Positions 1-9,660 of a stretch of DNA of 9,660 nucleotides are shown in pieces; position 1 is the first letter of the stretch; every line of letters starts with the position of its first letter. The notes below the pieces were generated by a model. That model was not told the origin of the DNA and ran no database searches. It saw only the letters and a list, made by a program, of their open reading frames with translations. Source of the DNA: a virus (taxonomy: Duplodnaviria > Heunggongvirae > Uroviricota > Caudoviricetes); IMG/VR virus record IMGVR_UViG_2706794688_000013; one strand, 5' to 3'. The position numbers and the translations under genes were made by a program.

Positions 1-90
1 GAACAGGAGGGACAGCTGATAGAAACAGAAGCCACTGGAGCACCTCAAAAACACCATCATACACTAAATCAGTAAGTTGGCAGCATCACC
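1..90 (-). mobile_element. IS1 left end (terminal inverted repeat plus the first codons of insA), truncated by the window edge
   Basis: The reverse complement of 1..90 reads GGTGATGCTGCCAACTTACTGATTTAGTGTATGATGGTG...GCTTCTGTTTCTATCAGCTGTCCCTCCTGTTC, which I recognise from memory as the IS1 left terminus running into insA (MASVSISCPSCS...). The element boundary is at position 90; unrelated sequence starts at 91. Confidence 0.85.
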
Positions 91-242
91 CCGCCACAGA
101 ACAATTATTGCTTTTGCCGTTGATGACAATAAAGTTTTTATCGCAGGCGTATACCACGGTGGGCAAATCTATGAAACCGATTTTTTATCCAGTGCACCGT
201 AAAACCCCCATCCTTCAGGGCGTGGCGGATATCAAACTTTGG

Positions 243-1325
243 TCATTTTCTCTGGCTGATCTTTACCGGATAACCATCCCGAAGATCAATTAAGTGCTCC
301 GGTTCAGAAGCAAACCATGCATAAGATCCCCACGCCAATTCTGGTATTGCCTTTTTAAAAGGCAGAGCACTTCTGTCCATAAATGCCGTAAGGAATGCAA
401 GATTTTTCTCGCTGAACCCAGCGTCAATAGCCAAATGAGTGAGAGTAACTTTTCGTTCCCTGTTTATAGGCCCATCTGTCGCAACTACTTCAGTGAAAAC
501 TACAAGCATGTCCGAACCCGTTCGGTCCTCTCCCAAATCAATCAAAATAATATCTGGAAGTGCTTTTGAGGCATCAATATTCAGCCCCAATGCTTTTGCC
601 AATACATCATCCTGAGCAACAACTTTATTCCCGGATTCAGACAACCAGAGCACAGTTGGATTCTTAAGAAAATTAGGAGCAAAAACTTCGATGACGGCCT
701 TAGCTATTGTACTTGACGGGCCCGGAGCTAAAGTTCTCTTCTCTCCATTTGGGAAAGTGACGACTACGGCATCAGCAGCAATCACTGCCCCTGATTTCAA
801 TAAACGCAACCTAGCAAGAGCGGCTTTGTTCAAATGATTTTCTTGCCAGGAACTTATTGCACTCAGCAGCGAATCTCCTTCAAGCCCGGCATCAAAGAGT
901 GCTGCAAAAGAGCGATTCAAACTGTAACGAGGACGAGAGGATGTGGTGGGTATACCTTTACGCTCAACAATTGCATTGCAAGGTATTAGGCCATTTTTTA
1001 TAGTTTCATCACGTATTGGCTCACGCGTATTTTCCGCATACCATGCATCAGCAGGCCTTATCTTTTGTTTAGAGAAAGTCATCTTTACCCAGCTTTCTCT
1101 GGACGCATCATCAGTAAGAGCAGCCTGCGAATCTCCCATACTTACAACCTGGCTGGGCCTTATCCATCGCCCCAGCCCCTCAACCGCACCAGCATAAAAC
1201 ATGACAAAAATTGTTTTTGCAGCTATTTCCCGAATTAAATATCCACGATTCTCAGTCCCTTCAGGGAAAATTAATTGTAATCTTTCCCGGATAACATTCA
1301 ATGGGGGAACAACAGGCAGATTCAT
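243..1325 (-). CDS. Putative Type II restriction endonuclease (BsuBI/PstI-like, tentative)
   Basis: 360-aa ORF whose ATG (1325..1323) overlaps the TGA of the upstream methyltransferase in an ATGA arrangement, indicating translational coupling. Stop TGA at 245..243. The family assignment rests on operon context and my recollection of BsuBI/PstI-family sequences; no catalytic motif was verified. Confidence 0.55.
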   Translation of the reverse strand: MNLPVVPPLNVIRERLQLIFPEGTENRGYLIREIAAKTIFVMFYAGAVEGLGRWIRPSQVVSMGDSQAALTDDASRESWVKMTFSKQKIRPADAWYAENTREPIRDETIKNGLIPCNAIVERKGIPTTSSRPRYSLNRSFAALFDAGLEGDSLLSAISSWQENHLNKAALARLRLLKSGAVIAADAVVVTFPNGEKRTLAPGPSSTIAKAVIEVFAPNFLKNPTVLWLSESGNKVVAQDDVLAKALGLNIDASKALPDIILIDLGEDRTGSDMLVVFTEVVATDGPINRERKVTLTHLAIDAGFSEKNLAFLTAFMDRSALPFKKAIPELAWGSYAWFASEPEHLIDLRDGYPVKISQRK

Positions 1326-3154
1326 GCAATCATCACTCCATAGAAACCAGCGATAGTTCTCTCAATAATCCGTCTGTGGACGCCAGCATCAATTAACGAT
1401 TGAATCTCCATCACCTGCTCCAGAGAAGGCAACGGGATTGAATTCAATTCATAGGCCGAAACAGCAACACTTCCGCTTATACACCTGAACGCCCGATCGA
1501 CAACATGCGAATTAAGTAGCATATCAATAACATCAGGGCGAACCGCAGAGAACAATCCGTTTGAATATACAATATTAATATGGTTTTCAACTACTACGCC
1601 ACCAGTTTCATCTATAAATCCCTGAGGTAAAATTGCCGCTAAAATCCTTCTGTCCTGTTCCTTCGATGTTGTCCGCTGAACAAGCACACATTCAGATTTT
1701 GTCACAAGGAAACCCTGTTGTGGGGTTATATCGATATAGGGAACATGATTTTTTCTGTCTGCACTAAAACGAAAACCAGCTGAAGTTATTGATTCCGCCC
1801 AGACTAATGGGTAGCTATTTTTTCCTTTCGTCGTACGCAACTGCGACTTAAATCGATTCCAGACTAACTGACCTGTAGAGACTGAGTATCCCAGATCAGC
1901 TAAACGCGTAGACATCTGTTTTAATACATTAAGAAAACAGGCATCATCTTTAACGCGTGGCAAAAGCCACGTTGCTCCACCTTTTTCTATATCAACATTA
2001 CCTATTTTCTCAATTTTTGCTTTGTTCAACCCCTTAGGGACAAGTGAGGATACCTGGGCCCGAACTTTATGTTCTCCCGCCTTGAATGCTGTCAACATTG
2101 TTTCCTGGAGAACATCGTCAAAGACCCCATCCCTGTCAGTGACGAAATCAAGGGCATACGGAGTAGTTTTTTCGGTCAAAAGGGTTCGCAGCGCGGTGAA
2201 ATACTGCCCACCAAGAAAAGAAGTTGGCGTAAGAAATGCAATAACTCCTGTTTTCTCTTTAACCATGCGAACAGCTAAGTCGGTGAACAATCCATATAGA
2301 TTTGCATGACCAAATAACGAACGAGAATATTTTTCTCTCGTTTTAATATCGAGAGTGACACGTCCGTAAGGCGGATTCCCTACCACAAGATCATAACCAG
2401 AAAATTTATCTTGCTGAAGCGCATCAGCAACAATAATTGTATCTTCAGGCAATCTACGTTTTACCTTTACACATAGTGGCATTAGTACAGATTCGAGCAA
2501 TACCAAACTCATCCAAGCCGCAAATGGATCGATCTCTATCCCCTTTAAACGACGACTGATTCTCCTCAACATCCATTCAGGGGAAGACCCCTTGTCTTTT
2601 TTTAACATTCGAATGGCTACTGGTGCCAAAAATGCACCGCCACCACACGCAGGATCAATAACCGATGCATGAGAAAAATCAACACCAGACTTTTCAGCCA
2701 GGTCCAAGAGACGCGCTACCAAAGGTGGGGGGGTATAGTAAGCCCCCAATTCCGAACGGTAAGCGGATGGCAGCATTACCGTATAAATTGACCCAATCAG
2801 ATATCCAGCGTCCTCCGCCGGAAATTGAGCAATAAGCTCACCTGTTCGTTCAGCGAGCTCGCGTGCATCACATGGAATGTCTTCTATGTAAACAGTGTGC
2901 GGTACTGCCCTCATTTTAATGCTGCTTTTTTGCTTTTTTGCAAGGGTATCCCAATATGCAGCTACGATGCTGAAGCAGTATGAGCGGGCATGCATCAACC
3001 TTGACTGCCCGGTTTTGTAATTGCCCGCATAACCTTTGGCCATGGCTTTACAAGTTTGATATCTTTCCAGATTAGAAAACTCATTATCTGTAAAAAAATC
3101 AAAATGTTGCACATTCATAATGTAAAATCCTAATGTATCAAACATGCGGGCCAT
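1322..3154 (-). CDS. N6-adenine DNA methyltransferase (gamma-class amino-methyltransferase)
   Basis: 610-aa ORF with motif order X (ELGAYYTPPPLV), I (VIDPACGGGAFLAP, the AdoMet-binding loop) and IV (VVGNPPYGRV, the NPPY catalytic motif), followed by a long C-terminal region consistent with a target-recognition domain. The start could be 3154, 3145 or 3118; the ATG at 3118 has the best Shine-Dalgarno (TAGGAT). Confidence 0.85.
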   Translation of the reverse strand: MARMFDTLGFYIMNVQHFDFFTDNEFSNLERYQTCKAMAKGYAGNYKTGQSRLMHARSYCFSIVAAYWDTLAKKQKSSIKMRAVPHTVYIEDIPCDARELAERTGELIAQFPAEDAGYLIGSIYTVMLPSAYRSELGAYYTPPPLVARLLDLAEKSGVDFSHASVIDPACGGGAFLAPVAIRMLKKDKGSSPEWMLRRISRRLKGIEIDPFAAWMSLVLLESVLMPLCVKVKRRLPEDTIIVADALQQDKFSGYDLVVGNPPYGRVTLDIKTREKYSRSLFGHANLYGLFTDLAVRMVKEKTGVIAFLTPTSFLGGQYFTALRTLLTEKTTPYALDFVTDRDGVFDDVLQETMLTAFKAGEHKVRAQVSSLVPKGLNKAKIEKIGNVDIEKGGATWLLPRVKDDACFLNVLKQMSTRLADLGYSVSTGQLVWNRFKSQLRTTKGKNSYPLVWAESITSAGFRFSADRKNHVPYIDITPQQGFLVTKSECVLVQRTTSKEQDRRILAAILPQGFIDETGGVVVENHINIVYSNGLFSAVRPDVIDMLLNSHVVDRAFRCISGSVAVSAYELNSIPLPSLEQVMEIQSLIDAGVHRRIIERTIAGFYGVMIA

Positions 3155-3368
3155 AACATCTCATGGTGGCGCATAGCAAACTGGCCCGAAGAATATCACG
3201 CACCAAGTCGATCTCATAACCCGTTATGACAATAAATCTTTGTAGCTGAACTCACTTGGTGATTTGTCAATCATTCCTGGCCTCCAGTTCGTCCTGAATC
3301 TCTTTATCGAGTTCACCGTATTTGTTAGTCCTCATCACTCACGACTTGACTTCCAGAAATAACCTTGA

Positions 3369-3725
3369 TTATTCGGGGCTATATTTTGTCACCCTGCGTA
3401 TCCGCGCTTTCGCATTACGCTCAATCTGGATTAGCTTTTCTATATTTTTTCGCCTTTCCCGCTCCTCCTGGCGCAAGAGCCTTACATCATCTGCCAGTCT
3501 GGTTTCTCTTTTCGCCACAGAGAGCATCCAGTCAAATGGCTCCACAACTGCACCGCAAATTTTACAGCGGACCTGACGCTCTTTTTCGTCAACCCGGACA
3601 GAAGCGTGATGGCAATATGGTCTTTCCGATGGCTCATAAAGAAAATTAACCTGATTACGAGGGTTATCCTCTTTTACCGGAAATAAAACAATATTGCTTA
3701 ACTCATCTTCTGGTTTTATTTCCAT
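3369..3725 (-). CDS. Hypothetical phage protein with a Cys/His cluster (zinc-ribbon-like) and a charged C-terminal helix
   Basis: The ORF track starts at a GTG at 3782. The ATG at 3725 is preferred because it is preceded by AAAGGAGAGGAGC. Contains YCHH...x16...CKIC followed by an Arg/Glu-rich segment. Function unknown. Confidence 0.5.
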   Translation of the reverse strand: MEIKPEDELSNIVLFPVKEDNPRNQVNFLYEPSERPYCHHASVRVDEKERQVRCKICGAVVEPFDWMLSVAKRETRLADDVRLLRQEERERRKNIEKLIQIERNAKARIRRVTKYSPE

Positions 3726-3782
3726 GCTCCTCTCCTTTGATGCGAATGCCAGCGGTAATTGAAGCCTGATAGCTAATTTCAC

Positions 3783-4205
3783 TCACAGTACCGCCTCCTG
3801 AAAATCACCCTGATAGAAAGCCGGTACACGCTGCATAACTTCACTCTTCCGGCACTCGCGACAGATTATGTTCTGATGTCTGTCGTAGCGGCGTATTTCT
3901 CCGTCCGGTAATGACCAGATAAGGTCCGGATCAACCACAGATGGTTTCTTCAGCTTTGCCCTCGAGAGTTTTTTGCGGGCGTTTTGCCAGTCCTTACGAG
4001 CCTGTTCAGACGGGAATAACCCGTAGCCAGAGTTGTATACATCCCCACTGGCAACCAGCTCTCTGGCGAGAACGCTTATTAAATATCTTGTCGCCCCGGT
4101 TTTAGCTTCCAGTTGTCGTAACGTCTCGCGCCCACTCTGGCGTACGAGTTCAACAACCTGCCCCTTAATTTTTTCCCGCTCTTCCTGTGTAAATACTTTT
4201 GCCAT
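3783..4205 (-). CDS. Hypothetical phage protein
   Basis: The ORF track starts at a TTG at 4220. The ATG at 4205 is preferred (upstream CGGGGGCGCTT; 15-nt gap after the stop of the upstream gene). Has a C-terminal CRECRK motif. Same strand and tightly packed with its neighbours. Confidence 0.5.
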   Translation of the reverse strand: MAKVFTQEEREKIKGQVVELVRQSGRETLRQLEAKTGATRYLISVLARELVASGDVYNSGYGLFPSEQARKDWQNARKKLSRAKLKKPSVVDPDLIWSLPDGEIRRYDRHQNIICRECRKSEVMQRVPAFYQGDFQEAVL

Positions 4206-4220
4206 AAGCGCCCCCGGCAA

Positions 4221-4946
4221 TCACTTTTCCGACACAATACGACCGGAGGAATCGACAATCTGTCGAACAATATCCCGGTGCTTGTTCAGCTCCCGCAACG
4301 CGGCGCAGACACGCTCCCACTTCTGGACATGACTTTTCGCCCGACGCAGTTCGCGGTTTGCCATATGCAGCGATGGTAAAACCAGGTCATCCGCTTGCGT
4401 TTCGGTGAACGATGGCAACGACTGCACAATGTCCGCCACAGTTTCTGTTTTAATTTCTTCCTGTGTTGCAGCTTCCTGTACCGGTAACGCAACACCTGCT
4501 GGCTGAGGAAAGACTTTACCATCCGTTTCCGCTATGGATGCGGCTTTCGGCTCTGCCGGTAAATCAGCGCCCGGTATGCAGTACCGAAATTTACCGCCCT
4601 GATTCACGCGAATCAGACGCCCTTTGCTGATTGCCATGGCCAGCGATGAATTCGCCCGGCGGGAGGTAATCCCGAACATCAGTGCCAGCTCATCCGCCGT
4701 TTGTGGGCCATGTTGTTCAATCGCCTCAGTCAGCATTTGCGCTGTCACTTTCGGTACCGGTGACACTGGTTCACTTTCACCAGCCTGAATCAGCCACCAC
4801 ATCGAACCCTTGTTATCCGCTTCACCACGGCGCTTCAGTTTCCACAGTTCGTTGACCGCATCTTCACGGCTGATTCCAAGGCGGGACGCCACCACATGTG
4901 AAGAGGCTCTTTTCAGTGCTTTCAGTGCGTCAAATACAGTTTCCAT
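4221..4946 (-). CDS. Hypothetical phage protein with two winged-helix-like segments
   Basis: ATG at 4946 is preceded by GGAGGA with a 7-nt spacer; the ORF track's TTG start at 4964 is less likely. Two similar segments ([25 protein letters not shown] and [27 protein letters not shown]) suggest a tandem HTH or winged-helix fold. Lies immediately downstream of the DnaC-like gene (stop 4968..4970). Confidence 0.55.
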
Positions 4947-4967
4947 TAAAACATCCTCCAACAAAAA

Positions 4968-5479
4968 TTACTTCACAACTCCCGGAAAGCTGACATTTGA
5001 ACGCCAGCTATCCCAGTTAAACGTCACCCACCGACAACCGTTCATGGTCATGCGGTCCATAATCCTCTCACCAAGAAGCGTGCTCATTGCGGCATGATTC
5101 AGGTTTGTTAACATCCCGACACTGCACAGTGATGCTGTCCGGCGATCAATTATCTGGTGCAATACCACCTGCTCGTTTTTCGTCTCCCGCTGAATGCCTA
5201 TTTCATCCAGGACCAGCAAATCAACCCCGCAAAGCTCCTGTAAAAATTTTTCACCGGATTTGCCGTTGTCGTAGCTGTCATGCAACACGCTCATGACATC
5301 AGACTCGGTGACGATAATCACGCTGCGCCCCTTCGCCATCAGCCGGTTACCCATCGCCGCTGCAAGGTGATTTTTCCCGGTGCCGGTTTTACCGCTGAAC
5401 ACAAAATTCGTGCACCCGGTCATCAGTTCGTCAGCTATGGATTTGGCCTGGCTCAGCGCGTATTTTTGCCCGTCGTTCT
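4968..5479 (-). CDS. DnaC-like helicase loader (AAA+ ATPase); 5' end lost in the N gap
   Basis: Walker A FSGKTGTGKNHLAAA and Walker B LLVLDEIG motifs in the expected order and spacing for DnaC/IstB-type loaders. Only the C-terminal part is visible; the N-terminal part lies within or beyond the N run. Confidence 0.85.
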
Positions 5480-5732
5480 NNNNNNNNNNNNNNNNNNNNN
5501 NNNNNNNNNNNNNNNNNNNNNNNNNNNNNNNNNNNNNNNNNNNNNNNNNNNNNNNNNNNNNNNNNNNNNNNNNNNNNNNNNNNNNNNNNNNNNNNNNNNN
5601 NNNNNNNNNNNNNNNNNNNNNNNNNNNNNNNNNNNNNNNNNNNNNNNNNNNNNNNNNNNNNNNNNNNNNNNNNNNNNNNNNNNNNNNNNNNNNNNNNNNN
5701 NNNNNNNNNNNNNNNNNNNNNNNNNNNNNNNN
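5480..5732. other. Assembly gap (253 N)
   Basis: Uninterrupted run of n. The X-containing ORFs reported across it are reading artefacts. Confidence 0.99.
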
Positions 5733-6742
5733 CAACGCTGGTTGTTCGTGCCGCTTACCGGGAGCAACCAGGGGTTTTCAAAATTCCGGTCCGGCCCAAA
5801 AAACGTCGTCGCTCGCTGAACAAATTCCGTTCCCGCTTTCCCGGTCGCCGCCAGGTATCTCGCGTAACGCCTCACACCATCCAGCATGGTCTCTGGTGGC
5901 ACCCCCTCGCGCAATCTGGCCTTCCAGGCACTGAATGCGGATTTCTTCGGGTTTGCCCCGGCACGCAACGGGTATTCCCGCCAGACCTGTTCGAACACAT
6001 CCGGATAATCCACTCGTCCCACAGGCTGCCCGGTGTTTTCCGGGGCTACCCGATCGGCTTCCCGCTGAATGGCGGAATCGGCTTCAGGCTGCTGCAGTTG
6101 GAGTGATTGCTCCGGCCTTGCGGTCATCACCTGCTGCACAGCGCCCGAATCGGCTTTCAGCGCATACGCTGAATCGGCTTCCGGTGTCGAGCCTGCTGGC
6201 TGACCAGGATTGACGGTCTGAACATCCCCTGCCTGGTTCGTGGCGTTTTTTACGCCATGGACCATAGTGTTTTGATCTTCTTTATCTGTATCTTTATCTG
6301 TATCTGTCGTGACTCGTCGTGACATGTGCGTGACATTTCGTGACGCGCCGTGACAATCGCCATTTTGTTCCCGCTTTCTTTCCCTCTCTCGCTGCGCCCT
6401 CTTGCGCTCTGCAGGAGATTTTGCGGTTTGCGAAATATTGCCGTTGTCCTCTTTAAGCACCTGGCGTTTTTCCCATCCAGTGATTAAATCACCATCAAGT
6501 ACCCGCCCCTGCATCGTCTGCAAAATTGAATCAATTACCTCTTCTGTCACGTCGAGCGCACTTGCCAAATCTTCTGTCGTGACATCAATGTGACCTCGCG
6601 TGACATTTCGTGACGCGCTCACCAGGAGGTGGATATACACTGCCATCACTGTTGCAATTGGCTGCCCTGACACCCTGGCAATTGTTCGCCACTTAGGGTC
6701 ATTTGGCATGTCATGCCATAATCTGAGCCAGGCGTTAGCCAT
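5733..6742 (-). CDS. Phage replication initiator / replisome organiser (lambda O-like); 3' end lost in the N gap
   Basis: ATG at 6742 is preceded by GAGGTGA. The C-terminal visible part has the W..YP.....K..A...W motif (VWREYPLRAGANPKKSAFSAWKARL) that I associate with phage replication proteins. The gene contains the iteron arrays. Gene order (Cro-like, YdaT-like, this gene, DnaC-like) matches Rac-type early-right operons. Confidence 0.7.
6280..6303. repeat. Perfect 12-bp tandem duplication (CTTTATCTGTAT x2) in an AT-rich stretch
   Basis: Read directly: 6280..6291 equals 6292..6303. It lies inside the O-like gene, where it encodes a TDKDTDKED repeat, immediately next to iteron cluster 1. Confidence 0.8.
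6308..6354. repeat. Iteron cluster 1: five CGTGAC hexamers phased at 10-11 bp
   Basis: CGTGAC at 6308, 6318, 6329, 6339 and 6349, about one per helical turn. Confidence 0.65.
6578..6614. repeat. Iteron cluster 2: four (C/T)GTGAC hexamers phased at 10-11 bp
   Basis: Hexamers at 6578, 6589, 6599 and 6609, plus an inverted copy GTCACG at 6546..6551. A 21-bp stretch (6598..6618) is identical to 6328..6348 in cluster 1. Confidence 0.65.
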
Positions 6743-6813
6743 ACTCACCTCTTCTGATACCGAATCTTTTTACTCACGAGTTGCCGGGAGCGATTCGATA
6801 TGGCTATTGTCAG

Positions 6814-7239
6814 TCAATGTACTGCCACAGCATTTCCTGCCGGGCCACCACGGTTCATCTGATTGAAACCGGCGATTGCCACTGCGACAAAATCATCAGC
6901 GTCTCTCACCAGTCGTTCATGCGTCTCCACCAGTTCCCGAAAATAAGCTGAACTGTGGCTGCGCATTCGAGCCACCAGCGGAGGTGGCATTGCCCTTTCG
7001 ATCGCAGGTAACAACGCCTGAATTTTTTCAACAGCGTCAGGGGTGTCTTTATCCAGCCAACGGAAAATCTTTTGGGTGTTGAGATAAAGCGTGTTGTGCT
7101 TGCTGTCGTTATGCAGAACCGGAAACGTCATTCCCAGTTCGAAATAAACCCTGGTTATTTCAGCTGCCGGAACTTTTTCACCGTCCGGATGCGCCCAGGC
7201 TTTCATCGCCATGCGGATGTGTTCATGCTTGATTTTCAT
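6814..7239 (-). CDS. YdaT-like protein (Rac-prophage family; proposed CII-like regulator)
   Basis: 141 aa beginning MKIKHEHI, which I recall as the N-terminus of E. coli Rac YdaT. Its ATG (7239..7237) overlaps the TGA of the upstream Cro-like gene (ATGA), and GGGGG lies upstream. Confidence 0.65.
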   Translation of the reverse strand: MKIKHEHIRMAMKAWAHPDGEKVPAAEITRVYFELGMTFPVLHNDSKHNTLYLNTQKIFRWLDKDTPDAVEKIQALLPAIERAMPPPLVARMRSHSSAYFRELVETHERLVRDADDFVAVAIAGFNQMNRGGPAGNAVAVH

Positions 7240-7499
7240 GAATCAACCCCCGCCGATGGTTGTGTGTTAGCCTGAAACTCAGCAGGCAAGCCGTCAGTTG
7301 GGTTGGGGTAGGTTTTACTGTCAATCTCATGTGGGGTCACCACCCATCCCGTTGCTTCACACCAACGTAATATTTTTTCTCCTGTAAGTTTTGCACGCCC
7401 CGTTATAACGTGGCTGACCATCCCTTGGGATGCGCCAACAATCTCAGCAAATGAACTCTGGGTTATATGAAAATGATGCAAATATTCTCCAAGATTCAT
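7236..7499 (-). CDS. Cro/YdaS-like HTH regulator
   Basis: ATG at 7499 is preferred over the ORF track's TTG at 7526. HTH-like segment QSSFAEIVGASQGMVSHVITGRAKLTGEKI. Transcribed divergently from the repressor gene and first in the replication operon. Confidence 0.6.
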   Translation of the reverse strand: MNLGEYLHHFHITQSSFAEIVGASQGMVSHVITGRAKLTGEKILRWCEATGWVVTPHEIDSKTYPNPTDGLPAEFQANTQPSAGVDS

Positions 7500-7535
7500 A
7501 ATCCGCCCTATGTGATGTGTTACCAATGCATAATT

Positions 7536-7575
7536 AATAGCACTGTTATTTTTAAAAGTAAATAGTGATACTATT
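7536..7575. promoter_or_regulatory. Two operator-like 15-bp palindromes in the divergent promoter region
   Basis: 7536..7550 AATAGCactGTTATT and 7561..7575 AATAGTgatACTATT, 25 bp centre to centre. On the minus strand a TTTACT-17-TATTAA promoter-like pair (plus coordinates 7557..7562 and 7534..7539) overlaps them, so repressor binding would occlude the Cro-like promoter. Confidence 0.45.
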
Positions 7576-7610
7576 TCAAAGTGATTAGCAATCTTATTAG
7601 AATTGGATGT

Positions 7611-8111
7611 ATGAAAAGAAAATCATTGTCAGACACCGACCTCAACGCCGCCAGAAGACTGAAAGAAATCTGGATGGCAAAGAAATCTCAGTTGGGATTG
7701 ACTCAGGAACGTGCGGCGGAAATTATGGGGTTTTCAACACAAGGGGCGGTAAGTCACTACCTAAATGGTCAAACCCCACTAAACCTTGAGGCTGTTCTAA
7801 AGTTTGCTGGCTTACTGAAAGTTCCCCCTGAGTCAATCAGGCCAGACATGGTAGATTTGCTGCAAATTGCAAGGATGTATTGTCGAGAACCACAGCAAGA
7901 TAACATAGTCGCATTACCAGCAGACACAGAACAAACAGAGGATGAACTACCGTTTGCCGTAGAGCCGATGGAACGAGATTTAATCCATACGTTCAGAGCT
8001 TTTCCGAAAGAAGATCAAGAACACATGCTTCAGGAGATGAAAGATAAAAAAGAATCAATGGATCGTACGGTTGCGCGGTGGTTAGCTGCACAAAAAGGCC
8101 GTCGCGCCTAA
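7611..8111 (+). CDS. HTH (XRE-family) repressor; candidate immunity repressor and/or PaaR-like regulator of the downstream toxin-antitoxin pair
   Basis: ATG at 7611 is preferred over the ORF track's start at 7581. N-terminal HTH (LTQERAAEIMGFSTQGAVSHYLNG). No Ser-Lys peptidase (LexA/S24-like) C-terminal domain is recognisable. Divergent from the Cro-like gene. Confidence 0.7.
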   Translation: MKRKSLSDTDLNAARRLKEIWMAKKSQLGLTQERAAEIMGFSTQGAVSHYLNGQTPLNLEAVLKFAGLLKVPPESIRPDMVDLLQIARMYCREPQQDNIVALPADTEQTEDELPFAVEPMERDLIHTFRAFPKEDQEHMLQEMKDKKESMDRTVARWLAAQKGRRA

Positions 8112-8130
8112 ATCAGAGGAGATATGTAAA

Positions 8131-8325
8131 ATGAGTACAGTCCTTTCCCCAATGGTTTCAGAATTTGAGACAGTTGAGCAAGAAAATAGTTACAACGAAT
8201 GGCTGCGGGCCAAAGTAGCAGCAAGCCTCGCGGATCCCCGCCCGGCGATTCCGCATGATGAGGTAATGGCGGAAATGGAACAAATTATTGCCCAAATTGC
8301 TGCTGCAACTCACAGAGGTGAATAA
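8131..8325 (+). CDS. Small antitoxin (PaaA/ParD-like)
   Basis: 64-aa acidic protein directly upstream of a ParE-like toxin, with a 1-nt stop/start overlap (TAATG). Shine-Dalgarno GAGGA lies 10 nt upstream. Confidence 0.65.
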   Translation: MSTVLSPMVSEFETVEQENSYNEWLRAKVAASLADPRPAIPHDEVMAEMEQIIAQIAAATHRGE

Positions 8326-8615
8326 TGTTACCCGTTTTATGGCTACCATCTGCTCGTGATGATTTGCGCCAGATCGTAGCCTACATAGCTAAAGAAAATC
8401 CCGCGGCAGCACGCAGAATGAAAATTCGAATTGAAACATCCGTTTTGCCGCTCACAGAGCATCCTTACCTGTATCCTCCAAGCGAGCGAGTTCTTGGTCT
8501 TCGTGAAATTGTAACTCATCCTAACTACATCATCCTTTACCGAGTAACAGCATCAAGCATAGAAGTAGTAAATATTGTGCATTCTCGAAGACAGTATCCA
8601 GGCAAAAACAGTTAA
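8325..8615 (+). CDS. ParE/RelE-superfamily toxin
   Basis: 96 aa with the ParE-like pattern: N-terminal W..SARDDLRQIVAYI, then PYLYP...GLREIVTHPNYIILYRV, then VVNIVHSRRQYP at the C-terminus. Coupled to the antitoxin. Confidence 0.75.
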   Translation: MLPVLWLPSARDDLRQIVAYIAKENPAAARRMKIRIETSVLPLTEHPYLYPPSERVLGLREIVTHPNYIILYRVTASSIEVVNIVHSRRQYPGKNS

Positions 8616-8631
8616 TTATTCCCGCCGACAG

Positions 8632-8656
8632 AACCACCTTAGGGTGGTTTTTTCTT
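8632..8656 (+). terminator. Rho-independent terminator after the toxin gene
   Basis: Stem AACCACC (8632..8638), loop TTAG, stem GGTGGTT (8643..8649), running into TTTTTTCTT. Confidence 0.6.
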
Positions 8657-8671
8657 GCCCCAACAAAAAAC

Positions 8672-8714
8672 AATAGCGATGCTATTTACATCAAAAAAAA
8701 ATAATGATGCTATT
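8672..8714. promoter_or_regulatory. Second pair of operator-like palindromes (same consensus as 7536..7575)
   Basis: 8672..8686 AATAGCgatGCTATT (perfect 6-3-6 inverted repeat) and 8700..8714 AATAATgatGCTATT, 28 bp centre to centre. TTTACA at 8685..8690 could serve as a -35 for a rightward promoter. Confidence 0.4.
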
Positions 8715-8895
8715 GTTTCAGGCGTCAACCCACCCCGCCCCACAGAATGCAGGGCAATACTTCGAGTTACCAGACAGTGGTCAGGGGTTAAGTAGCCAGC
8801 CCGAGGCGTAAGAACATGACGGCAGGGTTCAATCTTTAACTATGCAGCAGGTTTTTTGTTCCGCCACCCCGGCGTTAAGGGGAAATGAGGTCAGC

Positions 8896-9048
8896 ATGGA
8901 TACTATCGATCTTGGCAACAACGAATCTCTGGTGTGCGGCGTGTTCCCTAACCAGGATGGAACGTTTACCGCCATGACGTATACCAAAAGCAAAACGTTT
9001 AAAACCGAATCTGGCGCGCGTTGCTGGTTAGCCAGAAACACTGACTGA
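8896..9048 (+). CDS. Small hypothetical prophage protein (50 aa)
   Basis: ATG at 8896 with GAGG 5 nt upstream; the ORF track's upstream extension has no ribosome-binding site. The sequence MDTIDLGNNESLV... resembles small proteins I associate with Rac-type prophages (YdaF-like), but that is from memory only. Confidence 0.5.
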   Translation: MDTIDLGNNESLVCGVFPNQDGTFTAMTYTKSKTFKTESGARCWLARNTD

Positions 9049-9059
9049 TGAGGCTGACG

Positions 9060-9425
9060 ATGGAATTTAAAGATTTACCGTCTGATGTACAGAAAACAGC
9101 AGCTCATACATTGCATTCTGTGCTGCGAGAAATCGGGAAAGATATTGCAAGCGAGCCAGCAAAAGATCTGGCCCGGAAAATCAAGACCGCTTTCGTTGAG
9201 CTTTATAATGTTGGCACTGACTCTGAAACTGTCGAGACCAAGACCGTAAGTTCACCAATATTCTCACTTGAGCCAAGCGTATTATCAGGTGAAATATGCA
9301 CCGAGATTTCCAGCGAACTGCTTCCGGTAATACGAGAAGCAATTCGCCGTCGCGGTTTGGATGGAAGTTATGATCATGACGTTCTGCAAGTTCTCAGGAC
9401 AATGGTGACTTCACTGGGGATTTGA
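9060..9425 (+). CDS. Hypothetical protein (about 121 aa)
   Basis: ATG at 9060 is preceded by GAGG with a 6-nt spacer; it follows the upstream gene's stop (9046..9048) by 11 nt. No recognisable motif. Confidence 0.5.
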   Translation: MEFKDLPSDVQKTAAHTLHSVLREIGKDIASEPAKDLARKIKTAFVELYNVGTDSETVETKTVSSPIFSLEPSVLSGEICTEISSELLPVIREAIRRRGLDGSYDHDVLQVLRTMVTSLGI

Positions 9426-9557
9426 TCCCTGCGTCCTCTAAGCTTTTGATATAGCGGTCCTCCAAGAAGCGGTAAATTTTGTCGAAATCATCTTTTCCCT
9501 CTGGTTTATTCAGAGGATTACAGGACCCGTAAGTAGCGGCATACATTTCAACCGTTT

Positions 9558-9660
9558 GGTAATGACTCCAACTTATTGATAGTGTTTTATGTTCAGATAA
9601 TGCCCGATGACTTTGTCATGCAGCTCCACCGATTTTGAGAACGACAGCGACTTCCGTCCC
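9558..9660 (-). mobile_element. IS1 right end (terminal inverted repeat plus the 3' end of insB), truncated by the window edge
   Basis: 9558 onward reads GGTAATGACTCCAACTTATTGATAGTGTTTTATGTTCAGATAATGCCCGATGACTTTGTCATGCAGCTCCACCGATTTTGAGAACGACAGCGACTTCCGTCCC, the complement of the IS1 right terminus and insB C-terminus (…SFSKSVELHDKVIGHYLNIKHYQ*) as I recall it. The insB stop corresponds to plus-strand 9574..9576. Confidence 0.85.

What the first reader, a model, noticed from the sequence alone, without database searches (positions are those of the whole stretch)
1..9660. Whole module is bracketed by two IS1 ends in direct orientation
Positions 1..90 are the IS1 left end and 9558..9660 the IS1 right end, both on the same strand relative to the window. 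The 9.47-kb segment 91..9557 therefore lies between two IS1 copies in direct orientation, or the window wraps around a single IS1 on a circular replicon of roughly 10.2 kb. Either way an IS1-bounded unit carries a phage-type replicon, a toxin-antitoxin pair and an R-M system. This is the makeup of a mobilisable addiction and defence island, and IS1-mediated recombination could excise or move it.
Basis: partly seen in the sequence, partly recalled or inferred. Interest (0 to 1): 0.55.

Follow-up and report, generated by a model that had tools for sequence, protein, structure and literature searches.

The report
IS1-trimmed prophage remnant in Shigella sonnei
The window is a well-known kind of thing: a leftover piece of a lambda-like prophage in the Shigella sonnei chromosome, cut down on both sides by copies of the insertion sequence IS1. 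It is not a small plasmid or a mobile island built by IS1.

Summary
Window 1-90 and 9558-9660 are the two different ends of IS1, in the same orientation. They are identical to complete 768-bp IS1 copies at this locus in finished chromosomes.

The 9.47-kb interior is 99.9-100% identical to a chromosomal segment of Shigella sonnei (FORC_011 and UKMCC1015 verified by accession). It lies between ydfI and ynfE/ynfF, the locus of the K-12 cryptic prophage Qin.

The gene order is that of a lambdoid prophage:
- a ParE remnant
- a PstI/BsuBI-type R-M pair
- nin-region genes
- DnaC-like and O-like replication genes
- YdaT and YdaS
- paaR2-like, paaA2 and parE2 genes

IS1-free E. coli prophages carry the same modules in the same order, so IS1 did not assemble them.

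The right IS1 is a simple insertion. It has a 9-bp target duplication (CAACCGTTT) and empty sites exist in relatives. The left IS1 has no duplication. It joins the ydfI-ydfJ spacer to the last 36 codons of a parE gene, so it is a deletion junction.

The outer flanks of the pair do not match. The unit is absent from 72,556 plasmid records, and its junctions are absent from 5,426 complete E. coli genomes. Composite-transposon and 10.2-kb replicon readings are therefore not supported. IS1 x IS1 deletion is plausible and is seen right next door. This is ordinary IS-driven genome decay.

The parts
1..90 (-). IS1 copy 'L': terminal 90 nt at the IRL end. The element continues to the left of the window.
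   Evidence: Identical to the end of complete 768-bp IS1 copies at this position in L002-L017. IRL is the complement of 68-90.
92..202 (+). Remnant of a ParE/RelE-family toxin gene: the last 36 codons plus the stop. The 5' two thirds and the parD antitoxin gene are missing.
   Evidence: The translation RHRTIIAFAVDDNKVFIAGVYHGGQIYETDFLSSAP* is identical to the C-terminus of the intact 103-aa ParE (WP_197939990.1) next to ParD in the E. coli FDAARGOS_943 prophage.
243..1325 (-). Type II restriction endonuclease of the BsuBI/PstI family, 360 aa, intact.
   Evidence: Pfam PF06616 (9e-45) and PF17728 (1e-30). PADLOC REase_II 2.8e-128 over the full length. RefSeq annotation in L001.
1322..3154 (-). 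Cognate N6-adenine DNA methyltransferase, 610 aa, intact. It overlaps the endonuclease gene by 4 nt.
   Evidence: Pfam Eco57I and N6_Mtase. PADLOC MTase_II 1.8e-300 over the full length.
3369..3725 (-). Hypothetical nin-region protein (118 aa; 137 aa from an upstream GTG).
   Evidence: Gene calls in relatives. Only a weak sub-threshold zinc-ribbon hit.
3783..4205 (-). DUF977 prophage protein.
   Evidence: Pfam PF06163 2.6e-30.
4221..4946 (-). DUF1627 (YdaW-like) prophage protein.
   Evidence: Pfam PF07789 3.9e-93.
4968..5714 (-). DnaC/IstB-like ATPase, in the position of lambda P. Its 5' part lies under the N mask.
   Evidence: Precomputed Pfam IstB_IS21 and Bac_DnaA on the identical gene in relatives. 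Full sequence read from L017.
5480..5732 (.). Run of 253 N (masked). Relatives have 296 bp here, spanning the O stop codon and the DnaC-like start codon.
5678..6742 (-). Phage replisome organizer, in the position of lambda O. Its 3' end lies under the N mask.
   Evidence: RefSeq name in L001. A 354-aa gene in relatives. Matches 'DNA replication protein O' of Escherichia phages.
6814..7239 (-). YdaT, a functional analogue of CII.
   Evidence: Pfam PF06254. Role as described in PMC8630535 and PMC9986795.
7236..7499 (-). YdaS/Cro-like HTH regulator, 87 aa.
   Evidence: Position and divergent orientation. Weak HTH_3 hit. Gene calls.
7611..8111 (+). CI-like repressor without an S24 peptidase domain, in the paaR2 position, 166 aa.
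   Evidence: Pfam HTH_3 only. The best PDB matches are the N-terminal domain of lambda CI, 2.5e-9. It lies directly upstream of paaA2-parE2, as in CP-933P.
8131..8325 (+). PaaA2 antitoxin.
   Evidence: Pfam PF21217 3e-23. PDB 3zbe PaaA2 1.4e-23.
8325..8615 (+). ParE2-type toxin.
   Evidence: Pfam PF05016 1.8e-17. PDB 5cw7_B ParE 6.7e-37.
8896..9048 (+). DUF1391 (YdfA-like) small protein. This is the only stretch about 90% identical to K-12 Qin.
9048..9425 (+). 125-aa hypothetical early-left prophage protein.
   Evidence: No Pfam family on record for the identical product and no PADLOC family. Found in prophages upstream of rha and dicB.
9549..9557 (.). CAACCGTTT, the left copy of the 9-bp target-site duplication of IS1 copy 'R'.
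   Evidence: The same 9 bp follow the IS1 in L005, L008, L009, L012 and L016. A single copy is present at the empty site in L014 and L018.
9558..9660 (-). IS1 copy 'R': terminal 103 nt at the IRR end. The element continues to the right of the window.
   Evidence: Identical to the start of complete 768-bp IS1 copies at this position.

Best explanation
The window is a chromosomal remnant of a lambdoid prophage at the Qin locus (ydfI ... ynfE/ynfF) of Shigella sonnei. What survives is the immunity, replication and nin-region part. Two independent IS1 events bound it. The right IS1 transposed into the early-left region of the prophage as a simple insertion and duplicated 9 bp. The left IS1 marks a deletion that fused the ydfI-ydfJ spacer to the 3' third of a prophage parE gene. 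That deletion removed ydfJ, parD and the whole late half of the prophage (Q, lysis, head and tail genes). It arose either by IS1 adjacent deletion or by recombination between two earlier IS1 copies. The R-M pair, the paaR2-paaA2-parE2 module and the O/DnaC-like genes are cargo and core genes inherited from the phage. The two identical direct IS1 copies make the segment a substrate for RecA-dependent loop-out deletion, but nothing shows that it moves as a unit. Shown: the identity, orientation and completeness of the IS1 copies, the chromosomal context, the target duplication and empty sites, and synteny with IS1-free prophages. Inferred: the order of events, the mechanism of the left deletion, and the identification of the window's own strain as S. 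sonnei, which rests on near-identity.
For: (1) Window 1-5479 is 100% identical, and 5733-9660 identical apart from a 1-nt poly-A length difference, to several 4.8-5.0 Mb chromosomes. CP010829.1 is S. sonnei FORC_011 and CP060117 is S. sonnei UKMCC1015. (2) The outer flanks are collinear with K-12. On the left they run up to 1,630,961, in the ydfI-ydfJ spacer. On the right they resume in ynfE or ynfF, followed by ynfG, ynfH, dmsD and clcB. (3) The right IS1 has the 9-bp duplication CAACCGTTT in 5 strains, and empty sites with one copy exist in L014 and L018. (4) The left IS1 has flanks TGTTATATG | CCGCCACAG with no duplication. The two flanks come from non-contiguous DNA, and the parE reading frame is cut after its first 67 codons. 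(5) IS1-free prophages (E. coli FDAARGOS_943, L006, L018) carry ParD-ParE, R, M, hypothetical, DUF977, DnaC-like, O, YdaT, Cro and repressor genes in the same order. They then continue into Q, lysis and structural genes on one side and dicB, exonuclease, xis and int on the other. (6) Phage database hits are to lambdoid/Rac-like Escherichia phages with cI, cro, cII and O annotations. (7) In most public assemblies the contigs carrying these genes are 2-10 kb long, and several end within 5 nt of the IS1 junctions, as expected for repeat-broken short-read contigs. (8) IS expansion with IS1 as the main contributor, and IS-mediated gene loss, are documented for S. sonnei (PMC7373316).
Against: The window itself shows only the IS1 ends, so its own outer flanks are inferred from near-identical genomes. 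Which of the three right-flank configurations it has is unknown. The prophage integrase and att sites are gone, so the original integration site cannot be proven, and close relatives of this phage sit at potC in E. coli. Only two of the matching accessions were tied to an organism name through the literature.
Confidence: 0.9

Rival explanations
1. The unit is a Tn9-like composite transposon. Two direct IS1 copies mobilised the 9.47-kb cargo into this site as one piece, and it can move on as a defence and addiction island.
For: There are two complete IS1 copies in direct orientation, identical or differing by 1 nt, around a cargo of selfish modules. Tn9 has this architecture (own knowledge).
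Against: No common target duplication flanks the pair. The right copy has its own private 9-bp duplication and empty sites inside prophage DNA that continues beyond it. The cargo is collinear with IS1-free prophages past both boundaries. The unit is seen in a single context, in no plasmid record, and its junctions are in no complete E. coli genome.
Confidence: 0.03
2. The window wraps around one IS1 on a circular replicon of about 10.2 kb, a lambda-dv-like plasmid with TA and R-M.
For: The ends are complementary parts of one IS1 in the same orientation. The interior holds cro/cII-like, O-like and P-like genes, the set that lambda-dv plasmids use (own knowledge).
Against: At least 12 finished chromosomes hold two separate IS1 copies with different outer flanks. 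None of 72,556 plasmid records covers 80% or more of the window. A CI-like repressor gene is intact, which would be expected to keep the replication operon silent (inference from PMC8630535).
Confidence: 0.02
3. This is an add-on hypothesis that is compatible with the best explanation. The segment persists between two recombinogenic IS1 copies because losing it is penalised by post-segregational killing from PaaA2-ParE2 and from the R-M pair. It would then be the part of the prophage that is hard to delete.
For: DNA on both sides has been deleted, in several different ways on the right, while the interior is 99.9-100% conserved among strains. paaR2-paaA2-parE2 was shown to be addictive and was proposed to limit rearrangements in the CP-933P immunity region (PMC8630535).
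Against: All genomes examined were retrieved through proteins of the segment, so genomes that lost it could not be seen. S. sonnei is clonal, so conservation may only reflect recent ancestry. Strain UKMCC1015 has lost 1.85 kb, including the 5' end of the methyltransferase gene, while keeping the endonuclease gene. This argues against strong R-M addiction.
Confidence: 0.3

Closest known systems
IS-eroded cryptic prophages of Shigella (IS1-driven genome reduction; Hawkey et al. 2020, PMC7373316)
   Same: There are multiple IS1 copies in one orientation within 20 kb. Some have target duplications and others sit at deletion junctions. The arrangement varies from strain to strain through IS1 x IS1 recombination.
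   Different: Nothing essential differs. I did not find this particular locus described in the papers I read.
Cryptic prophage Qin of E. coli K-12 (ydfJ ... rspB)
   Same: It has the same chromosomal locus and orientation, with the late side towards ydfI/ydfJ and the dicB/ydfE side towards ynf. The ydfA-like stretch is about 90% identical. In the least-deleted strain, dicB-ydfD-ydfE are 92% identical.
   Different: The immunity, replication and nin regions are not homologous at DNA level to K-12 Qin. Here paaR2-paaA2-parE2, YdaS/YdaT, O/DnaC-like genes and an R-M pair take the place of dicA/dicC, relBE and hokD.
Immunity region of CP-933P/Sp12 of E. coli O157:H7 (paaR2-paaA2-parE2 facing ydaS-ydaT; Jurenas et al. 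2021, PMC8630535)
   Same: It has the same module order and orientation: a CI-like regulator lacking the peptidase domain, PaaA2 and ParE2, divergent from the Cro-like and YdaT genes, and next to an O homologue.
   Different: Homology was tested against PDB chains and Pfam only. No PaaR2 reference sequence was available, so the 166-aa repressor is called PaaR2-like from its position and domain content.
Tn9-type IS1 composite transposon
   Same: Two direct IS1 copies flank a cargo.
   Different: There is no shared target duplication. One IS1 has its own duplication. The cargo continues into the same prophage beyond the right IS1. There is a single genomic context.
PstI/BsuBI type II restriction-modification systems
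   Same: Both endonuclease domains and an adjacent, overlapping gamma-type N6-adenine methyltransferase gene are present.
   Different: Specificity and activity are unknown. The nearest endonuclease relatives outside Escherichia/Shigella are at most 68% identical, in Paraburkholderia, Burkholderia and Candidatus Erwinia dacicola.

Membership tests
IS1 (IS1 family insertion sequence) | Element of about 768 bp with imperfect terminal inverted repeats of about 23 bp | tested here: met
   The window ends are identical to the termini of complete 768-bp copies at the same positions. The inverted repeats match at 18 of 23 positions.
IS1 (IS1 family insertion sequence) | Encodes InsA and InsB (InsAB' DDE transposase) | tested here: met
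   Pfam Zn_ribbon_InsA, HTH_Tnp_IS1 and DDE_Tnp_IS1 on the products of the complete copies in relatives. RefSeq 'IS1-like element IS1A/IS1B family transposase' lies under matches to both ends. The genes themselves lie outside the window.
IS1 (IS1 family insertion sequence) | Target-site duplication of 8-9 bp on simple insertion | tested here: met
   The right copy has CAACCGTTT on both sides in 5 strains, with empty sites in L014 and L018. The left copy has none, as expected for a deletion junction.
IS1 composite transposon (Tn9-like) | Two IS1 copies flanking a cargo | tested here: met
IS1 composite transposon (Tn9-like) | Target-site duplication outside the pair, with no private duplication of one copy | tested here: not met
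   The outer flanks are TGTTATATG versus CAACCGTTT, TTTCCGGTT or CGACCCGTG. The right copy has its own duplication.
IS1 composite transposon (Tn9-like) | Same unit found in more than one genomic context | tested here: not met
   It occurs in one chromosomal context only. No plasmid record has 80% or more of it. The junctions are absent from 5,426 E. coli genomes. Shigella genomes other than those retrieved could not be screened.
Small circular replicon (about 10.2 kb plasmid, lambda-dv-like) | Closed circle: both window ends joined through one IS1, with no chromosomal flanks | tested here: not met
   There are two separate IS1 copies with distinct chromosomal flanks in at least 12 chromosomes, and no plasmid match. 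A transient excised circle cannot be excluded with these tools.
Lambdoid prophage (cryptic remnant) | Lambda-like order: repressor, then divergent cro and cII analogues, then O, P and the nin region, collinear with complete prophages | tested here: met
Lambdoid prophage (cryptic remnant) | Integrase, att sites and late genes | tested here: not met
   They are absent from the window and from the S. sonnei locus. They are present in IS1-free relatives. This is why it is a remnant and not a prophage.
paaR2-paaA2-parE2 three-component TA | PaaA2 antitoxin directly followed by a ParE2-type toxin | tested here: met
   PF21217 and PF05016. PDB 3zbe and 5cw7 at 1e-23 and 7e-37. The genes abut at 8325.
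paaR2-paaA2-parE2 three-component TA | Upstream CI-like HTH regulator lacking the peptidase domain, divergent from ydaS-ydaT | tested here: met
   HTH_3 only, a match to the N-terminal domain of lambda CI, and YdaT on the opposite strand. Compared with the description in PMC8630535. There was no direct alignment to PaaR2.
paaR2-paaA2-parE2 three-component TA | Toxicity, neutralisation and addiction | not testable with these tools
   Needs experiments.
Type II R-M, BsuBI/PstI family | BsuBI_PstI endonuclease N- and C-terminal domains plus an adjacent N6-adenine methyltransferase | tested here: met
Type II R-M, BsuBI/PstI family | CTGCAG specificity, and active restriction and modification | not testable with these tools
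   Needs methylome data or enzyme assays.

The most novel reading that the evidence does not exclude
The 9.47-kb remnant might not be merely passive. IS1 x IS1 recombination could release a 10.2-kb circle carrying cro/cII-like, O-like and P-like replication genes, PaaA2-ParE2 and a PstI-type R-M. Such a circle could replicate like lambda-dv and behave as a prophage-derived addictive plasmid. In a milder form, the two addiction modules could be the reason this piece alone survived IS1 erosion.
Probability: 0.05. Interest if true: 0.45.

Novelty: already known. Interest (0 to 1): 0.1.

Why it matters
It matters little beyond correct annotation. The case shows that a contig ending in matching IS1 halves should not be read as a plasmid or a transposon. 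Here it is a repeat-broken piece of the S. sonnei chromosome. The locus is a tidy worked example of IS1-driven decay of a prophage: one insertion with a target duplication, one deletion junction, and strain-to-strain IS1 x IS1 deletions. It also lies next to the deletion that removed speG, a loss regarded as pathoadaptive in Shigella (PMC3213128). If the addiction modules really protect the remnant from deletion, that would be a modest illustration of how TA and R-M genes shape which prophage parts survive.

Tried and rejected
(1) A scan of genome contigs with the endonuclease was meant to find the source contig and its title. No Escherichia or Shigella locus came back. Relatives were at most 68% identical in Burkholderiaceae, Erwinia dacicola, sphingomonads and others, so the species-representative collection does not hold this segment.

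(2) I tried an unbiased search for strains that lost the segment. I searched YdfI, intending to look up its encoding contigs. All genomes examined therefore carry the segment by construction.

(3) Junction searches in 5,426 complete E. coli genomes found no true match. No intermediate was found that would tell whether the left junction arose by adjacent deletion or by recombination between two IS1 copies.

(4) Rfam found nothing at gathering thresholds.

(5) I considered that S. sonnei and K-12 share the IS2 insertion in ydfE, because homology to K-12 stops exactly at the K-12 IS2E. I rejected this. The S. sonnei IS there gave no BLAST match to K-12 IS2E, so the shared end point only reflects the K-12 insertion.

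(6) The plasmid reading and the composite-transposon reading were rejected as set out above.

Full report
**Observation.** The left 90 nt of the window are the reverse complement of the IRL end of IS1, and the last 103 nt are the reverse complement of its IRR end. Both stretches are identical to the corresponding termini of complete 768-bp IS1 copies found at exactly these positions in finished chromosomes. The terminal repeats (complement of 68-90, and 9558-9580) match each other at 18 of 23 positions. The complete copies encode InsA-type and IS1 DDE-type proteins. Both ends hit features annotated as IS1A/IS1B-family transposases in about 4,960-4,990 of 5,426 complete E. coli genomes. The two partial copies point the same way.

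**What lies between.** Window 91-9557 reads, from left to right:
- the last 36 codons of a ParE-family toxin gene (92-202)
- a BsuBI/PstI-family type II endonuclease (243-1325, minus strand)
- its overlapping N6-adenine methyltransferase (1322-3154, minus strand)
- a hypothetical gene, then DUF977 and DUF1627 genes
- a DnaC/IstB-like ATPase and a phage replisome organizer (lambda P and O positions)
- YdaT and a Cro-like gene
- then, on the plus strand, a CI-like HTH repressor without a peptidase domain (7611-8111)
- PaaA2 (8131-8325) and ParE2 (8325-8615)
- a DUF1391 gene and a 125-aa hypothetical gene

A run of 253 N masks 5480-5732. The best phage matches are lambdoid/Rac-like Escherichia phages with cI, cro, cII and O annotations. 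The repressor-PaaA2-ParE2 operon facing YdaS-YdaT next to an O homologue is the arrangement described for the immunity region of the cryptic prophage CP-933P of E. coli O157:H7. There PaaR2, YdaS and YdaT act like CI, Cro and CII, and the TA was shown to be addictive (PMC8630535).

**The gene set comes from a phage, not from IS1.** The chromosome of E. coli FDAARGOS_943 has no IS1 here. It carries ParD-ParE, R, M, hypothetical, DUF977, DnaC-like, O, YdaT, Cro and repressor genes in the same order. Window 91-4058 is 99.1% identical to it. That prophage continues into RusA, Q, tRNAs, lysis, terminase, portal and capsid genes on one side, and into dicB, exonuclease, xis and int on the other. Other IS1-free relatives show the same (L006, L018). 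The replicon, the TA and the R-M system are therefore the ordinary replication module and moron cargo of a lambdoid prophage.

**Where it sits.** Look-ups of two window proteins returned at least 12 chromosomes of 4.8-5.0 Mb. In these, window 1-5479 is 99.96-100% identical, and 5733-9660 differs only by a poly-A length at about 8693 and 0-2 substitutions. Two of them are named in papers: CP010829.1 is S. sonnei FORC_011 and CP060117 is S. sonnei UKMCC1015. Both IS1 copies are complete and separate there. Left of the left IS1 the DNA is collinear with K-12 (ydfG, rspR, ydfZ, ydfI) up to 1,630,961, in the ydfI-ydfJ spacer. Right of the right IS1 the K-12 map resumes in ynfE or ynfF, followed by ynfG, ynfH, dmsD and clcB. 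This is the locus of the K-12 cryptic prophage Qin, in the same orientation. No plasmid record covers 80% or more of the window. A scan of one genome per species found no Escherichia or Shigella copy, and endonuclease relatives elsewhere were at most 68% identical.

**How the two IS1 copies got there.** The right copy is a simple insertion. In five strains it is flanked on both sides by CAACCGTTT (left copy at window 9549-9557). L014 and L018 have the empty site with a single CAACCGTTT and the same sequence on both sides.

In the least-deleted strain (UKMCC1015), 1.24 kb of prophage follows the right IS1. Next comes a third IS1 with its own duplication, TTTCCGGTT, whose empty site is present in L018. 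Then come dicB, ydfD and part of ydfE, then an IS3-family element, and then the 3' part of ynfE.

Other strains show three further arrangements:
- The third IS1 is followed directly by the middle of ynfF.
- A single IS1 has the left flank of the right copy and the right flank of the third copy. This is a clean IS1 x IS1 recombinant.
- A single IS1 is followed by the ynfF fragment.

Recombination between direct IS1 copies thus demonstrably happens at this locus.

The left copy has no duplication (TGTTATATG | CCGCCACAG). It joins the chromosomal ydfI-ydfJ spacer to the inside of a prophage parE gene, so it is a deletion junction. The deletion removed ydfJ, parD, two thirds of parE and the late half of the prophage. 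Whether it arose by IS1 adjacent deletion or by recombination between two earlier IS1 copies cannot be decided, because no intermediate was found. Neither junction exists in 5,426 complete E. coli genomes.

A composite transposon that inserted as a unit should have one duplication outside the pair. The outer flanks differ, the right copy has a private duplication, and the prophage continues beyond it. The unit was found in a single context. A 10.2-kb circle with one IS1 is contradicted by the finished chromosomes and by the plasmid search.

The window has the form expected of a short-read contig that runs into a repeat at both ends. Among assemblies that carry the endonuclease, the longest carrying contig is 2-10 kb in 3,819 of 4,192 data blocks. 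Several contigs stop within 5 nt of the IS1 boundaries (L011, L018, L019, L020, L021).

They are direct repeats, so RecA-dependent loop-out of the segment is mechanistically plausible.

**Secondary hypothesis.** DNA on both sides has been eroded repeatedly while the interior is nearly invariant. The interior also holds two potentially addictive modules. The remnant may therefore be protected against deletion, as proposed for paaA2-parE2 in CP-933P. Against this, S. sonnei is clonal. In addition, UKMCC1015 has lost window 2734-4580, including the 5' end of the methyltransferase gene, while keeping an intact endonuclease gene. I rate this hypothesis at about 0.3.

**Comparison and verdict.** This is IS1-driven decay of a cryptic lambdoid prophage, in a species where IS1 is the main contributor to a documented IS expansion and to gene loss (PMC7373316). 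The sequence is present, essentially identical, in many public genomes. It is not a member of the Tn9-type composite transposons, because the defining duplication and multi-context tests fail. It is not a plasmid. Its TA module belongs to the PaaA2-ParE2 family by sequence, and its R-M to the BsuBI/PstI type II family by domain content. The activity of either was not testable here. Novelty: already known. Interest: low.

Noticed in passing
window 5480-5732: A run of 253 N covers the end of the O-like gene and the start of the DnaC-like gene. All near-identical relatives have 296 bp here with nothing unusual in it. Either the mask does not preserve length or the source has a 43-bp difference.
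   Followed up: partly
L016 (S. sonnei UKMCC1015, CP060117), corresponding to window 2734-4580: A 1.85-kb internal deletion removes the first 140 or so codons of the methyltransferase, the hypothetical gene, DUF977 and the 3' part of DUF1627. The endonuclease gene stays intact at 360 aa. The endonuclease may be inactive or silent, or the shortened methylase may still work.
   Followed up: no
Right of the window: L016 13372-16190, L012 and L017 right flanks: The deletions to the right of the remnant remove intQ, rspBA, ynfA-D, speG and part of ynfE/ynfF relative to K-12. This agrees with the report that the ynfB-speG locus is completely lost in S. sonnei, a loss regarded as pathoadaptive (PMC3213128). 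In UKMCC1015 the junction is at an IS3-family element, not at IS1.
   Followed up: partly
L019 9640-9772, joined to window 8819: In one assembly a Mu-like transposable prophage (sheath, baseplate and tail-fibre-chaperone genes) abuts window 8819. It has repeated CCAGTGCAAAAAATACCGCC motifs and an end reading …GCTACA. This looks like a transposable-phage insertion into the remnant.
   Followed up: partly
L020, at window 6948/6949 (ydaT): One assembly has a 1.69-kb insertion encoding an IS91-family Y2 transposase inside ydaT.
   Followed up: no
L011 (contig AAWETE010000076.1): This contig is 100% identical to window 95-5479 (R-M, nin and DnaC-like genes). It then has a different O gene, a 79%-identical ydaT, a different cro/repressor pair and no PaaA2-ParE2. 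This is lambdoid module exchange at the replication/immunity boundary. The contig starts 4 nt from the left IS1 junction.
   Followed up: no
L002-L010, about 9 kb left of the window (locus coordinates 90-858 in window orientation): A further IS1 in the same orientation lies between a glycosyl-hydrolase-family-1 gene and mgtT. It has no target duplication (…TTCCGCCTG | TGAACGGAG…). This is another IS1-associated rearrangement junction, so three to four direct IS1 copies lie within about 22 kb.
   Followed up: no
window about 8693: An intergenic poly-A tract downstream of parE2 varies by 1-3 nt among otherwise identical strains. The window has the longest version.
   Followed up: no
window 243-3154: Outside Escherichia and Shigella, the closest endonuclease relatives in one-genome-per-species data are only 62-68% identical. 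They occur in Paraburkholderia, leaf-nodule Candidatus Burkholderia, Candidatus Erwinia dacicola, Hahella and Pseudomonas. The R-M pair was therefore probably acquired by the phage through horizontal transfer from a distant donor.
   Followed up: no
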